Source: a virus (lineage: Duplodnaviria; Heunggongvirae; Uroviricota; Caudoviricetes). From it: DNA of 13,007 bases. Location of the stretch: positions 1 through 13,007 of IMG/VR virus record IMGVR_UViG_3300029162_000078. The stretch is one strand, 5' to 3'. Positions 8,846 to 10,848 of the stretch are shown piece by piece; positions within the stretch are counted from its first letter, which is position 1, and every line of letters starts with the position of its first letter. The translations under genes were made by a program, and so were the position numbers. Under the pieces are notes generated by a model. It was given only the letters and a program-made list of their open reading frames with translations, ran no database searches and had not been told where the DNA came from.

Positions 8846-9400
8846 ATGCTTATTGGCTATGTACGTGTGTCAACAAATGACCAGAACACAGATCTACAAC
8901 GTAATGCGCTGAACTGTGCAGGATGCGAGCTGATTTTTGAAGACAAGATAAGCGGTACAAAGTCCGAAAGGCCGGGACTGAAAAAACTGCTCAGGACATT
9001 ATCGGCAGGTGACACTCTGGTTGTCTGGAAGCTGGATCGGCTGGGGCGCAGTATGCGGCATCTGGTCATTCTGGTTGAGGAGTTGCGCGAACGTGGCGTT
9101 AATTTTCGCAGCCTGACGGATGCTATTGATACCAGCACACCGATGGGGCGTTTTTTCTTTCATGTGATGGGTGCCCTGGCTGAAATGGAACGAGAACTGA
9201 TTGTTGAACGAACAAAAGCTGGACTGGAAGCTGCTCGCGCACAGGGACGAATTGGTGGACGTCGTCCCAAACTTACACCAGAACAATGGGTGCAGGCCGG
9301 ACGATTAATTGCATCAGGCGTTCCTCGCCAGAAGGTGGCGATCATCTATGATGTTGGTATATCGACACTGTATAAGAAGTTTCCGGTCGGAGATAAATGA
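8846..9400 (+). CDS. pin: Serine recombinase, DNA invertase of the Pin/Gin/Cin/Hin (Din) family
   Basis: ATG at 8846 with AGGGAG RBS gives a 184-aa protein: MLIGYVRVSTNDQNTDLQ... (catalytic Ser in the YVRVST motif), resolvase core, C-terminal HTH (...GVPRQKVAIIYDVGISTLYKKF). The track ORF starts 12 codons upstream at 8810. Confidence 0.9.
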   Translation: MLIGYVRVSTNDQNTDLQRNALNCAGCELIFEDKISGTKSERPGLKKLLRTLSAGDTLVVWKLDRLGRSMRHLVILVEELRERGVNFRSLTDAIDTSTPMGRFFFHVMGALAEMERELIVERTKAGLEAARAQGRIGGRRPKLTPEQWVQAGRLIASGVPRQKVAIIYDVGISTLYKKFPVGDK

Positions 9401-9440
9401 AACCGTAGCACGTCGTATGCAAGAAGATCGTGCTGCGGTT
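9399..9440 (+). repeat. Copy A of a roughly 40-bp imperfect palindromic repeat; probable bidirectional terminator between pin and the GIY-YIG gene
   Basis: GAAACCGTAGCACGTCGTATGCAAGAAGATCGTGCTGCGGTT: arms ACCGTAGCACG / CGTGCTGCGGT (10 of 11 complementary) around a 16-nt loop, followed by TTTATGCTTAT. Sits between two convergent genes. Confidence 0.5.
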
Positions 9441-9460
9441 TATGCTTATCACTTAAAGAC

Positions 9461-10234
9461 TCAAAAATTAGGTGAGTAACGGACCGGGGACATAGCTCCT
9501 TTTTTTCTTAATTCATCTGGTATTTTTTTTCCAAGATAAAGATTTGCTATTTCAGGTGGGGCTTCTCGACCTTCAAAACCATAGCGAGAACTTTGTGTTG
9601 CCTCAAAGTCCGGATCCTCGTCCCAGTATTTCATCGTAGGGAAATTTTCACGTGTTGATTTGAGCCATTTATCAGCAATGAAAACCCCTCGAACGATCCC
9701 CCTTACAGTAGCAAGAATGACTTCTGCTTGGCTGGCGCGAGAGACATTAATGCGCCAGCTAAATCGAACCGCATCATAAAGCTCTGAATCCTTTGCACTT
9801 CTGTTAACGGAAATCATTAATGCTTTATGATGAAATGTTATGGTTTCGGGTTGATATGTTGCTATCAACTCTTTGACATGCGCGGCGCCGAATTCATTGC
9901 TGCCAGCACCATTCATGATATTCGTTAACCCAGGGTAGGCATCAATAAGTGCTGCTTCAACTTCGTACGCCGTCTTTTCATCAGTCATTCCATGTCGATG
10001 GATGACATGGATAACTTCAAGTCCCGCTAATCTTATTTCTCTGATTTGCTTTAGCTTGTTGCTCAGTAACTCGTCATCATCAGCCGCTGCCACTTCACCG
10101 CGCATATGGGCAAATACGCGGTTACCTTTGCCTTTCCCTACATAGAAGGTGCTTCCGTCCCTAGGATCAATCAATCGGTATACATACCAGCCAAGGTGTT
10201 CAATTACTCCAGAAGGAAACTCAGTAATATCCAT
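9461..10234 (-). CDS. GIY-YIG family nuclease with uncharacterised C-terminal domain of about 130 aa (homing-endonuclease-like or restriction-like cargo)
   Basis: Preferred start is the ATG at 10234 (MDITEFPSG...); the TTG at 10285 lies upstream of the predicted -10. N-terminal GIY-YIG motifs: [28 protein letters not shown] (GIY...YIG plus Arg and His), then [12 protein letters not shown] (catalytic Glu) and NIMNG (Asn). AT-rich relative to the tail module. Confidence 0.75.
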
Positions 10235-10266
10235 TTTGCAATATCTGTGAATTATTTGTGAGACGT

Positions 10267-10295
10267 ATATTAATGAACATTGCAAGGGCTTACAA
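10267..10295 (-). promoter_or_regulatory. Candidate sigma-70 promoter of the GIY-YIG gene
   Basis: On the minus strand, TTGTAA (-35; plus 10290-10295), a 17-nt spacer, then TAATAT (-10; plus 10267-10272), about 30 nt upstream of the ATG at 10234. Confidence 0.35.
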
Positions 10296-10420
10296 CTAGT
10301 AGTGTTGAGAAAGCCATCGGGAAAATGAGGCTAACCCTTTGAATTTACATAGCGCAAAAAGATACCTTTCCTCATAATGTGAGCTAATTTTATGTTTCGT
10401 TTGATGATCGGGTCGGTCTC

Positions 10421-10460
10421 GAAACCCGTAGCCACGTCATATGCAAGAACGTGCTACGAC
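10421..10460 (+). repeat. Copy B of the roughly 40-bp imperfect palindromic repeat
   Basis: GAAACCCGTAGCCACGTCATATGCAAGAACGTGCTACGAC aligns with copy A over about 80% of positions (GAAACC-GTAGC-ACGTC-TATGCAAGAA-CGTGCT-CG). Same orientation as A, on the other side of the GIY-YIG gene. Confidence 0.5.
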
Positions 10461-10673
10461 TGGCTGGTGAACTTCCGATAGTGCGAGTATTGAATTATTT
10501 CCAACTGTTATCGATTTTGCGTATTTTTTGCATGAGAGGATTTTTACCTCCTCCCACCGATCCTCCATGGCTTTACGCCAGTGTCTCTGGTCTGCTATGT
10601 GCCAGGAGCAGCCATTGCTAAGTCCATCCTGTATTGTGCAGGTCAGCTCGTTTTTAAAGAGTCCGGCCATCAT
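10437..10673 (-). CDS. Hypothetical small protein (78 aa), doubtful
   Basis: ORF MMAGLFKNELTCTIQDGLSNGCSWHIADQRHWRKAMEDRWEEVK... with no convincing Shine-Dalgarno sequence or promoter. Its 3' end overlaps repeat B. Retained only as a possibility. Confidence 0.2.
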   Translation of the reverse strand: MMAGLFKNELTCTIQDGLSNGCSWHIADQRHWRKAMEDRWEEVKILSCKKYAKSITVGNNSILALSEVHQPVVARSCI

Positions 10674-10811
10674 CTTACTGGTACAGACACCATATACTTT
10701 GTGACGGTCAGGCTACATATGCACAACTCAACTTATTCATCTATTTTTTGCTTTAGCATGTCAGTGTTGCTTTCTCGTCGGCGGGTGAGCGGTGACCTGA
10801 CCTGTCGATAA

Positions 10812-10848
10812 AGGAACGTAGCACGTTTTATGCAACACCCGCATGCGG
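10812..10848 (+). repeat. Copy C (more divergent) of the roughly 40-bp repeat
   Basis: GGAACGTAGCACGTTTTATGCAACACCCGCATGCGG shares the GTAGCACGT-NN-TATGCAA core with A and B, same orientation. Lies upstream of the flxA promoter. Confidence 0.4.

What the first reader, a model, noticed from the sequence alone, without database searches (positions are those of the whole stretch)
9399..10848. Three direct copies of a roughly 40-bp imperfect palindrome bracket the cargo genes
Seen in sequence: copies A (9399-9440), B (10421-10460) and C (10812-10848) share the core GAAACC-GTAGCACGT-NN-TATGCAAGAA-CGTGCTRCGG, all in one orientation. A abuts the pin stop codon, and A and B flank the GIY-YIG gene and its promoter. 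Each copy can form a hairpin with an 11-bp stem, but the downstream sequence is not a clean U-tract, so they are not simply classical terminators. Inference: they may be module boundaries through which cargo was exchanged by recombination, a shared protein-binding or RNA structural element, or relics of repeated 3' ends of invertase-adjacent cassettes.
Basis: seen in the sequence. Interest (0 to 1): 0.55.

Follow-up and report, generated by a model that had tools for sequence, protein, structure and literature searches.

The report
Reused phage hairpin bracketing defence cargo
Two of the three repeats are copies of a conserved stem-loop found at the far end of tail-fibre modules in E. coli prophages (including phage lambda), which marks RNA 3' ends and is the point where accessory genes, here the anti-phage nuclease PD-T4-3, have been swapped in and out.

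Summary
Copies A (9399-9442) and B (10421-10462) are real, same-strand copies of a ~45-nt stem-loop. C (10812-10848) is only a decayed 5' half that cannot fold.

The family occurs in 5264 of 5426 complete E. coli genomes (median 3 copies). It is also in lambda (two copies flanking ea47), HK97, Rac, Qin and Stx phages.

The stem covaries: 9 of 12 pairs show compensatory changes. K-12 Term-seq places RNA 3' ends 4-8 nt behind two of the three K-12 copies, on the strand running towards the tail-fibre genes.

More than ten unrelated left flanks and at least five right flanks meet at the hairpin. Three cargo cassettes each occur in two contexts. For two of them the joint can be placed inside the hairpin. 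Allelic thrW prophages have pin-hairpin-right flank with no cargo.

The cargo here is PD-T4-3, a validated defence gene. Cargo elsewhere includes EcoRII R-M, a methyltransferase, a GGDEF protein and a protease-like gene.

Best reading: a terminator/insulator hairpin that also serves as a short homology patch for cassette exchange. It resembles the PeSL repeats of T4-type phages but carries no promoter. The recombination mechanism and the activity of A and B themselves are inferred, not shown.

The parts
9399..9442 (+). Copy A. A 13-bp stem-loop that starts in the pin stop codon and lies 20 nt beyond the PD-T4-3 stop codon on the other strand. It has T-rich tails on both strands, so it is a candidate convergent (bidirectional) terminator. 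Its arms form a hybrid pair: CCGTAG on the 5' side and CTGCGG on the 3' side, giving one T.G pair.
10421..10462 (+). Copy B. A weaker stem-loop with a bulged C and a mismatched base, and no U-tract on either strand. It is the head of the conserved lambda-b-like 'right flank' block.
10812..10848 (+). Copy C. A decayed half-copy holding the 5' arm, the start of the loop and a remnant resembling the last pin codons. It cannot fold. It sits directly after the ydfV stop codon inside a Qin-like block.
8810..9400 (+). pin-type serine DNA invertase (RefSeq start equivalent to window 8846). It has Resolvase and HTH_7 domains. It is the last gene of the tail-fibre/invertase module that A terminates.
9461..10234 (-). 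The cargo gene: PD-T4-3, a single-gene anti-phage defence with a LEM-3-like GIY-YIG nuclease domain. The longest ORF runs to 10285. It is oriented against pin.
10410..10428 (+). Relic of the anticodon arm of tRNA-Ser(CGA) (the serU attachment-site core). It travels with the right end of the PD-T4-3 cassette and is joined to B at the shared GAAA(A)CCG.
10461..10628 (+). Conserved 'right flank' block, 83% identical to lambda 24162-24365 when taken together with B. It follows the hairpin in most phages.
10590..11400 (+). Qin-like block holding the ydfV 3' part, copy C and flxA. It is 99.4% identical to K-12 Qin. It joins the right-flank block at the microhomology TGTGCCAGGAGC.
1399..1445 (+). attL: the 3' end of tRNA-Thr(CGT), one copy of the 47-nt direct repeat that bounds the prophage remnant.
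11853..11899 (+). attR: the second copy of the 47-nt repeat.

Best explanation
A and B belong to one conserved family of ~45-nt stem-loops. The consensus is AAACCGCAG(N)CACG - TCGTATGCAAGAA - CGTGCTGCGGTT.

The hairpin marks the distal end of the tail-fibre/invertase module in temperate coliphages. It sits 8-34 nt behind tfa or a pin-type invertase, or overlaps the invertase stop codon. It also sits at the inner edge of the attachment-site region.

Its most likely primary job is at the RNA level. It forms or protects transcript 3' ends, chiefly for transcription running towards the tail-fibre genes. That makes it the terminator of the counter-oriented cargo genes and an insulator between them and the late genes.

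In this window A would end both the pin and the PD-T4-3 transcripts, which converge on it. B would at most attenuate leftward read-through into the cassette.

The hairpin is the only conserved island between otherwise unrelated accessory DNA. It therefore also acts as a short homology patch. Recombination inside or at the edge of the hairpin inserts, deletes or swaps cargo and leaves same-strand copies on both sides. This gives arrays of the form hairpin - cargo - hairpin - cargo - hairpin.

What is shown: family membership, stem covariation, junction coincidence, presence/absence alleles, cargo identity, and RNA 3' ends at K-12 homologues.

What is inferred: termination by A and B themselves, and homologous recombination as the mechanism.

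C is a non-functional relic.
For: Distribution. The hairpin is in 5264 of 5426 complete E. coli genomes (median 3 places, maximum 10). It is in lambda at 22567-22613 and 24156-24202, flanking ea47. It is in HK97 between tfa and sib/att, in K-12 Rac and Qin at the prophage ends, in the ykgJ-ecpE spacer, and in Stx phages.

Structure. In a sample chosen without constraining either arm, 9 of 12 pairs show changes on both sides and 89.8% of cells are paired. None of 500 shuffles reaches this, and slid controls score far lower. The bulged base varies freely (A, C, G, T or absent).

RNA 3' ends. K-12 Term-seq lists 304213/304212 (minus strand, about 99,000 and 88,000 reads), 4-5 nt behind the stem of the ykgJ-ecpE copy. 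That site is not in a Rho region and has an intrinsic-terminator score of 2.78. It also lists 1632571/1632574 (plus strand), in and after the U5 tract behind the Qin copy. The tail on that strand is T-rich in 19 of 37 unique copies, against 5 of 37 on the other strand. The 3' end of Rfam CssrB is this hairpin, and Peng et al. predicted it as a Rho-independent terminator.

Junctions. Left-flank classes include several invertase and tfa ends. The PD-T4-3 cassette lies behind pin (window, L109, L028) and behind an acyltransferase region (L058, L018). In both contexts the 3' arm is the same while the 5' arm and loop differ. The protease-like cassette behaves likewise (L047 against L088). Hybrid, mismatched arms are seen in window A, L088 and L260. 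Many loci lose homology to the window exactly at B's 5' arm, 10428-10444.

Alleles. L079 and L108 are thrW prophages with pin-hairpin-right flank and no cargo. L099 equals A's left part plus B's right part.

Arrays. L296 and L322 carry three copies.

Cargo. PD-T4-3 (E = 2.6e-140), EcoRII R-M, a SAM methyltransferase, an SDH/ClpP-like protein, a GGDEF protein and a CapH/CapP-like pair.
Against: No transcript data exist for this strain.

The loop of 11-16 nt is larger than in typical intrinsic terminators, and the consensus scanner called none of the copies.

The K-12 intrinsic-terminator score of 2.78 is below the 3.0 threshold. Coverage upstream and downstream of the ykgJ site is equal (44 against 49), so that 3' end may reflect processing or protection rather than efficient termination. 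The Rac copy has no listed 3' end.

B has no U-tract on either strand.

B's left joint is a microhomology fusion with a tRNA-Ser attachment-site relic, not hairpin-by-hairpin exchange. Another joint in the same region also lies at a microhomology. Illegitimate recombination followed by selection for an intact hairpin could therefore explain part of the pattern.

Single mismatches compatible with G.U pairing occur for both strands, so covariation does not say which strand folds.

The loop is as conserved as the stem, and a terminator role alone does not explain that.
Confidence: 0.62

Rival explanations
1. Passive relics. The copies are simply leftover 3' ends of tail-fibre or invertase modules, dragged along when prophages recombined illegitimately. 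The hairpin has no present function and no role in the exchange.
For: C is a decayed half-copy. Truncated half hairpins follow PD-T4-3 in L014 and L034. HK97, lambda copy 2 and C carry remnants of the last pin codons. Second copies in L009, and probably in Rac, are preceded by duplicated tfa 3' fragments. B's left joint and the joint at 10597-10609 are microhomology fusions.
Against: Compensatory changes keep 9 of 12 pairs complementary across diverged copies. Abundant RNA 3' ends map behind two K-12 copies. Flank homology begins and ends within about 4 nt of the stem in many independent contexts. Cassettes switch context inside the hairpin.
Confidence: 0.17
2. A dedicated recombination site. 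On this view the hairpin, as folded single-stranded DNA or as a 12-13-12 inverted-repeat core site, is recognised by a recombinase acting in trans. Cassettes would excise and integrate as they do at integron attC sites or at Xer-exploiting elements.
For: The copies are imperfect palindromes with a bulged base and an asymmetric conserved spacer. Same-strand copies flank single cargo units and form arrays of up to three. L099 looks like a precise excision or empty product. The context switches of the two cassettes whose joints can be placed both map to the loop region.
Against: No recombinase travels with the cassettes. The hairpin occurs in lambda and HK97, which lack pin. It does not fit the 12-2-12 pix architecture, whereas a true pix-like site is present at 8773-8784. 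The attC R boxes RYYYAAC/GTTRRRY are absent (sequence). Arms covary to keep pairing rather than keeping a fixed protein-binding sequence. Many joints are ragged: half copies and microhomology fusions.
Confidence: 0.08
3. A small-RNA or cis-regulatory leader element. The hairpin would be the terminator of a CssrB-like sRNA, or an attenuator in the 5' leader of the gene to its left. Repetition would then merely reflect several such genes.
For: The last 40 positions of Rfam CssrB are this hairpin, and a transcript of about 180 nt was seen by Northern blot in Shigella. In K-12 the hairpin ends 31 nt upstream of the ykgJ start codon, so ykgJ must be transcribed through it. An abundant 3' end lies there together with read-through.
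Against: A and B score 23.5 and 19.6 bits against a gathering score of 76, and only over the terminal hairpin. No locus examined contains a full CssrB. Sequences upstream of the hairpin are unrelated between contexts. A lies at the 3' ends of two converging coding genes, not in a leader.
Confidence: 0.1

Closest known systems
PeSL (promoter-early stem-loop) cassettes of T4-type phages (Arbiol et al. 2010, PMC2839356)
   Same: Both are short conserved repeats containing a stem-loop terminator. Both flank non-essential genes in hyperplastic regions. In both, recombination between copies explains the insertions, deletions and replacements seen between related phages.
   Different: Here the repeat contains no promoter. 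The hosts are temperate phages and prophage remnants of unrelated types (lambdoid and Mu/e14-like tails). There are only 1-10 copies per genome. The copies lie at the end of the tail-fibre module. Mini-circles have not been looked for.
Morons: accessory genes with their own promoter and terminator in lambdoid phages (concept of Juhala et al. 2000, cited from memory)
   Same: The cargo genes are single, mostly counter-oriented accessory genes set between late genes and att. Each is followed by a stem-loop at its 3' end.
   Different: Moron terminators are not described as one shared sequence family. Here the same hairpin is reused by many unrelated cargos and coincides with the mosaic joints.
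Rfam RF02799 CssrB (Shigella flexneri sRNA; Peng et al. 2011, PMC3071730)
   Same: Model positions 141-180 are this hairpin, in the same orientation as A and B. It was predicted as a Rho-independent terminator.
   Different: Only the terminal hairpin matches, and the scores are far below the gathering threshold. The 140 nt upstream are absent here.
Integron attC sites
   Same: Both are imperfect palindromes with an unpaired base. Both occur as same-strand copies separating single-gene cassettes.
   Different: There are no R'/R'' boxes and no IntI/attI/Pc platform. The sequence itself is conserved at 85-95%. The cassettes have room for their own promoters and are mostly oriented against the neighbouring operon. 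The joints are often imprecise.
Bidirectional intrinsic terminators and insulator terminators at the ends of mobile elements (for example the Tn916 end terminator, PMC11658703, abstract only)
   Same: A sits between two converging genes and has U-rich tails on both sides. Copies at prophage ends would shield structural genes from outside or antisense transcription.
   Different: Activity is untested here. The loop is unusually large. The sequence is shared across many elements.

Membership tests
Intrinsic (Rho-independent) terminator | A stable G+C-rich stem-loop | tested here: met
   A folds at -22.5 kcal/mol (z = -6.1) and B at -12.6 (z = -4.1). C does not fold.
Intrinsic (Rho-independent) terminator | A U-tract immediately 3' of the stem | tested here: inconclusive
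   A has 5 of 8 T on the plus strand and 6 of 8 on the minus strand. B has 2 of 8 and 3 of 8. Across the family, 19 of 37 unique copies are T-rich on the minus side and 5 of 37 on the plus side.
Intrinsic (Rho-independent) terminator | A short loop (3-8 nt) | tested here: not met
   The loop is 11-16 nt, and the consensus scanner calls none of the copies. Lambda copy 1 can fold with a 5-nt loop.
Intrinsic (Rho-independent) terminator | RNA 3' ends mapped just behind the hairpin and independent of Rho | tested here: inconclusive
   Met for two K-12 homologues: 304212/3 on the minus strand (which is not in a Rho region) and 1632571/4 on the plus strand. Against this, the intrinsic-terminator score is 2.78 (below 3.0) and there is read-through. 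Rho dependence was looked up only for the 304213 site. There are no data for A or B themselves.
Rfam RF02799 CssrB | A match at or above the gathering score (76 bits) over the 180-nt model | tested here: not met
   The scores are 23.5 and 19.6 bits. Only model positions 141-180 align.
PeSL-type mobile regulatory cassette | A conserved repeat flanking variable accessory genes | tested here: met
   Pairs and triplets of same-strand copies bracket at least eight different cargo sets.
PeSL-type mobile regulatory cassette | A strong sigma-70 promoter inside the repeat unit | tested here: not met
   There is no promoter-like site in or next to A, B or C on the repeat itself. The conserved unit is only the hairpin plus or minus about 4 nt.
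PeSL-type mobile regulatory cassette | Indels and replacements between related genomes have their end points in the repeats | tested here: met
   Empty alleles are L079, L108 and L099. The same cassette occurs in two contexts with the joint in the hairpin. Homology breaks fall at 10428-10444.
PeSL-type mobile regulatory cassette | Circular excision products | not testable with these tools
   This needs PCR with outward-facing primers on phage or cell DNA.
Integron attC | R''/R' core sites (RYYYAAC ... GTTRRRY) | tested here: not met
   The 3' edge reads GTTGGCT or GTTTATG and the 5' edge TGAAACC. Neither fits (sequences).
Integron attC | An adjacent intI, attI and Pc platform | not tested
   The only tyrosine-recombinase-sized ORF in the window (1459-2622, minus strand) lies next to the tRNA-Thr attL, 7 kb away. 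I did not classify it. Lambda, HK97 and the K-12 copies have no integron.
Hin/Gin/Pin crossover site (pix) | Two 12-bp half-sites, AAACC and GGTTT, around a 2-bp core | tested here: not met
   In the hairpin, AAACC and GGTTT are about 32 nt apart. The one pix-like site in the window is at 8773-8784, upstream of pin.
REP/BIME-type dispersed extragenic palindromes | Hundreds of copies dispersed through core intergenic regions | tested here: not met
   The median is 3 copies per genome. The three K-12 copies all lie at prophage ends or in a prophage-end relic.

The most novel reading that the evidence does not exclude
The hairpin may be the common handle of a cassette-exchange network for defence and lysogenic-conversion genes. 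On this reading, cargo units flanked by two copies pop out as circles, or are copied by double crossover, and re-enter at any other copy. Recipients would include lambdoid phages (lambda itself), Mu/e14-like prophages and fixed chromosomal relics such as the ykgJ locus. The same element would insulate each cassette transcriptionally. This would be a recombinase-free analogue of integron cassettes in temperate phages.
Probability: 0.22. Interest if true: 0.75.

Novelty: new variant of a known kind. Interest (0 to 1): 0.55.

Why it matters
If the reading holds, it gives a concrete, sequence-defined explanation of how anti-phage genes such as PD-T4-3 or EcoRII R-M move between unrelated prophages. 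The movement would happen at one hotspot, the region between the tail-fibre module and att.

It also gives a simple search key. Taking the intervals between same-strand copies of a 45-nt hairpin in about 97% of E. coli genomes would harvest candidate defence and conversion genes.

It would annotate two unmarked features of phage lambda, the copies on either side of ea47.

It would also explain abundant 'orphan' RNA 3' ends in K-12, upstream of ykgJ and at the edge of Qin.

All of this can be tested directly with reporter assays and junction PCR.

Tried and rejected
- The single genome-contig scan used too loose a pattern (TATGNARGAACGTNCNRCG). The true hits were E. coli, Shigella, one oddly labelled Chryseobacterium record and four records containing lambda DNA. 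The taxonomic range outside Escherichia/Shigella phages therefore remains unknown.
- The simple terminator scanner found nothing at the copies, because the loop exceeds 8 nt.
- Rfam at gathering thresholds found only the tRNA. The CssrB link appeared only at permissive E-values.
- Literature searches for a lambda late-operon or b-region terminator, and for boundary sequences, gave nothing relevant.
- The Pas sRNA paper concerns other prophage regions.
- The defence-hotspot papers by Vassallo et al. and on the Tai systems do not mention this hairpin.
- The GenBank and RefSeq lambda records carry no feature at either lambda copy.
- ARAGORN finds no tRNA next to PD-T4-3 in L012-type loci, because only the 3' two-thirds of serU is present. 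Alignment to K-12 serU settled the point.
- I considered and rejected a pix/gix crossover site, attC, REP-like elements, a local tandem duplication, and a coding explanation. The short ORFs through the hairpin are not conserved, and PGAP's 'capsid protein' pseudogene over B looks like an annotation artefact.
- G.U-compatible mismatches did not reveal which strand folds, because both kinds occur.
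Full report
SETTING. The window is E. coli chromosome carrying a prophage remnant at tRNA-Thr(CGT). A 47-nt direct repeat (1399-1445 and 11853-11899) is the 3' end of that tRNA and bounds the element. Inside lie Mu/e14-like baseplate and tail-fibre genes and a pin-type invertase (8810-9400). Next comes a counter-oriented 'LEM-3-like GIY-YIG' gene (9461-10234), a hypothetical ORF and flxA.

THE OBSERVATION. A and B are real copies on the same strand. Repeat families D11 and D14 pick them up, and the core is expected 0.01 times by chance. 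A covariance model built from copies elsewhere scores them at 51.9 and 60.6 bits. Taken alone, A folds into a 13-bp stem (-22.5 kcal/mol, z = -6.1). B folds into a weaker stem with a bulged C (-12.6, z = -4.1). C does not fold (z = +0.4). C keeps only the 5' arm and the start of the loop (17 of 19 bases identical to A), and the model does not detect it with filters off. C lies in a separate block (10590-11400) that is 99.4% identical to the K-12 Qin segment ydfV'-flxA, directly after the ydfV stop codon. So two copies bracket one cargo gene, and the third is a relic in a different module.

A WIDESPREAD FAMILY. The 42-nt consensus matches 5264 of 5426 complete E. coli genomes, with a median of 3 places and a maximum of 10.
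- Phage lambda has two copies, at 22567-22613 just after tfa and at 24156-24202. They flank the counter-oriented gene ea47 in the way A and B flank the GIY-YIG gene.
- In HK97 the hairpin lies between tfa and sib/att. It is preceded by a remnant of the last pin codons.
- K-12 has three copies: at the att-proximal ends of Rac and Qin, and in the ykgJ-ecpE spacer. e14 has none.
- In Stx2 phage 1717 the hairpin follows two counter-oriented genes and lies about 530 nt before the att duplication.
- Neither lambda record annotates anything at its two copies.

THE STEM IS UNDER SELECTION. I drew a sample using only the loop and the downstream TGGCTGG, so that neither arm was constrained. I then aligned it with the model (116 matches, 58 distinct). 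Nine of 12 pairs show changes on both sides and 89.8% of cells are paired. No shuffle out of 500 reaches the observed values, and slid registers score far lower. Examples of compensatory pairs are CCGCAG/CTGCGG against CCGTAG/CTACGG, CCGCGG/CCGCGG and CTGCAG/CTGCAG, and CACG/CGTG against AACG/CGTT and TACG/CGTA. The extra base in the 5' arm is A, C, G, T or absent, as expected for a bulge. This argues for base pairing in a single strand and against a double-stranded protein-binding palindrome.

RNA EVIDENCE. In the K-12 Term-seq data of Adams et al. 2021 (PMC7815308), curated 3' ends lie at 304213/304212 on the minus strand, with about 99,000 and 88,000 reads. That is 4-5 nt behind the stem of the ykgJ-ecpE copy. 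Further 3' ends lie at 1632571/1632574 on the plus strand, in and after the U5 tract behind the Qin copy. Both are on the strand that runs towards the tail-fibre side, which corresponds to the minus strand of this window.

The ykgJ site is not in a Rho termination region (Rho score 1.44). Its intrinsic-terminator score is 2.78, just under the authors' threshold of 3.0, and coverage is equal on both sides (44 against 49). It is therefore a strong 3'-end-forming or 3'-end-protecting hairpin with read-through. No 3' end is listed for Rac or for the other orientation.

This agrees with the tail composition. The tail on that strand has at least 5 T in 8 in 19 of 37 unique copies, against 5 of 37 on the other strand. 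Separately, the last 40 positions of Rfam CssrB are this hairpin in the plus orientation. Peng et al. 2011 set the 3' end of that Shigella RNA, about 180 nt on a Northern blot, from a Rho-independent terminator prediction. A has T-rich tails on both sides. It sits between the converging pin and GIY-YIG genes, which is the layout of a bidirectional terminator.

MOSAIC JOINTS COINCIDE WITH THE HAIRPIN. Among about 170 IMG/VR loci, more than ten unrelated left flanks meet the hairpin within about 4 nt of the stem. They include several invertase ends, several tfa ends, an acyltransferase upstream region, a tRNA-Ser relic and the ykgJ leader. At least five different right flanks start within about 4 nt after the stem.
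- The GIY-YIG cassette occurs behind pin (window, L109, L028) and behind an acyltransferase region (L058, L018). The 3' arm and downstream sequence are the same in both, but the 5' arm and loop differ.
- The SDH/ClpP-like cassette does the same in L047 (ykgJ context) and L088 (HK97-like context).
- The methyltransferase cassette follows two left-flank classes (L009 and L106).
- Arms that do not match each other look like crossover products in the loop. This applies to window A (T.G), the L088 type (A.C) and L260.
- Allelic thrW prophages L079 and L108 have pin-hairpin-right flank with no cargo. L099 equals A's left part plus B's right part.
- Many loci lose homology to the window exactly in B's 5' arm, at 10428-10444.
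- L296 and L322 carry three same-strand copies: hairpin, PD-T4-3, hairpin, a CapH/CapP-like pair with a Bro-N protein, hairpin.

NOT EVERY JOINT IS HAIRPIN-BY-HAIRPIN. The right end of the GIY-YIG cassette is the anticodon arm of tRNA-Ser(CGA). In L012-type loci it continues as the 3' two-thirds of serU, which is the att site of a serU-integrated prophage. In the window it is fused to B at the shared GAAA(A)CCG. L014 and L034 carry a truncated half hairpin there. The right-flank block joins the Qin-like block at a 12-nt microhomology. A and B are therefore not duplicates of each other. A belongs to the pin end and the 3' end of the cassette. B is the head of a lambda-b-like block: window 10426-10628 is 83% identical to lambda 24162-24365.

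CARGO. The window's gene matches the PADLOC model for PD-T4-3 over its full length (E = 2.6e-140) and Pfam LEM-3_GIY-YIG. PD-T4-3 is a single-gene defence that is active against T-even phages, including in a native host. Its mechanism is unknown. Other cargo found between hairpins is listed below. Most of it is oriented against the late genes.
- EcoRII endonuclease with a Dcm-type methylase
- a SAM methyltransferase
- an SDH/ClpP-like protein
- a MASE4-GGDEF cyclase
- an HTH plus M78 peptidase pair with a Bro-N protein
- a 517-aa protein of unknown function
- lambda ea47

MOST LIKELY MECHANISM. The hairpin is a terminator/insulator or 3'-end stabiliser. It closes the tail-fibre/invertase module and the counter-oriented cargo genes. 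As the only conserved island in a variable zone, it also serves as a homology patch of about 45 bp for exchange. That exchange could involve RecA or phage Red/RecET-type recombination. The choice of pathway is inference.

The closest described system is the PeSL repeats of T4-type phages. Those carry a promoter and this element does not. It is not a pix site: the only pix-like site is at 8773-8784. It is not an attC site, since it has no R boxes. It is not a member of CssrB, since the scores are far below gathering. It is not REP-like, given the low copy number and the location at prophage ends.

LIMITS. There are no transcript data for this strain. The loop is larger than in canonical terminators, and the scanner called no copy. 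The high conservation of the loop is unexplained. The taxonomic range is unresolved, because the one genome scan was too loose and was truncated. I could not check the older lambda and HK97 literature, so an earlier description of this hairpin cannot be excluded.

Noticed in passing
window 1399-1445 and 11853-11899; 1369-1444; 1459-2622: A 47-nt perfect direct repeat equals the 3' end of tRNA-Thr(CGT). These are attL and attR of the prophage remnant. An integrase-sized ORF lies on the minus strand next to attL.
   Followed up: partly
window 10410-10428; L012 about 1120-1190: The right end of the PD-T4-3 cassette is a relic of the anticodon arm of tRNA-Ser(CGA). In several IMG/VR loci the same cassette is followed by the intact 3' two-thirds of serU, which is the att site of a serU-integrated prophage.
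   Followed up: yes
K-12 NC_000913.3 303611-304255 (L125 2612-3256): The core-genome gene ykgJ lies, counter-oriented, between a tfa 3' relic (a full Rfam IS009 hit) and a hairpin plus right-flank block. The ykgJ locus therefore looks like a fixed prophage-end relic with ykgJ in the position of a cargo gene. In L047 a protease-like cassette sits at this hairpin.
   Followed up: partly
L127 23755-23953, L003 3317-3515, L009 5733-5931: Rfam family IS009 (RF02111) matches the 3' coding part of tail-fibre-assembly (tfa) genes in Rac, lambda and other phages. It therefore appears to model coding sequence rather than an RNA gene.
   Followed up: no
window 8773-8784: Only one pix/gix-like crossover core (AAACCAACGTTT) is present, just upstream of pin. 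Compared with L001, the tail-fibre and invertible-segment region of the window is shortened around 7993-7996. The inversion switch is probably defunct.
   Followed up: partly
window 10855-10882 (minus strand): The best sigma-70-like promoter match in the region (TTGACA, 16-nt spacer, AATAAT; 11 of 12) points leftward at copy C and antisense into the ydfV remnant.
   Followed up: no
window 10597-10609: The lambda-b-like block and the Qin-like ydfV'-flxA block overlap in a 12-nt microhomology (TGTGCCAGGAGC). This looks like an illegitimate or short-homology joint.
   Followed up: yes
window 12985-13007: The window ends in GGTAATGACTCCAACTTATT, which I recognise from memory as an IS1 terminal inverted repeat. 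The same IS1 end truncates the PD-T4-3 cassette in L120 at the position equivalent to window 10387.
   Followed up: partly
L002 7138-7224 (equivalent to window about 10439-10525): RefSeq/PGAP annotates an 87-bp 'capsid protein' pseudogene starting in the loop of copy B. Other genomes label the hairpin 'nucleocapsid protein' or 'hypothetical protein'. This is probably an annotation artefact propagated from a mis-called ORF.
   Followed up: no
L148, L179, L217, L229 (genome contigs): Records labelled Chromatiales MAG and Pseudoxanthomonas kalamensis, plus two other records, contain sequence identical to lambda 24.1-24.2 kb. This is probably lambda DNA contamination.
   Followed up: no
L191 1553-1812: A record titled Chryseobacterium sp. 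18061 carries an enterobacterial-type invertase end (...STLYKKFPAGER) that overlaps a hairpin copy with compensatory TACG/CGTA arms. This could be a mislabelled or contaminated assembly, or a genuinely wider host range.
   Followed up: no
L296 1451-5190; L322 5585-9322: These loci hold arrays of three same-strand hairpins. The order is PD-T4-3, then a CapH/CapP-like HTH plus M78-peptidase pair with a Bro-N protein. The second unit may be a regulated defence or conversion module.
   Followed up: partly
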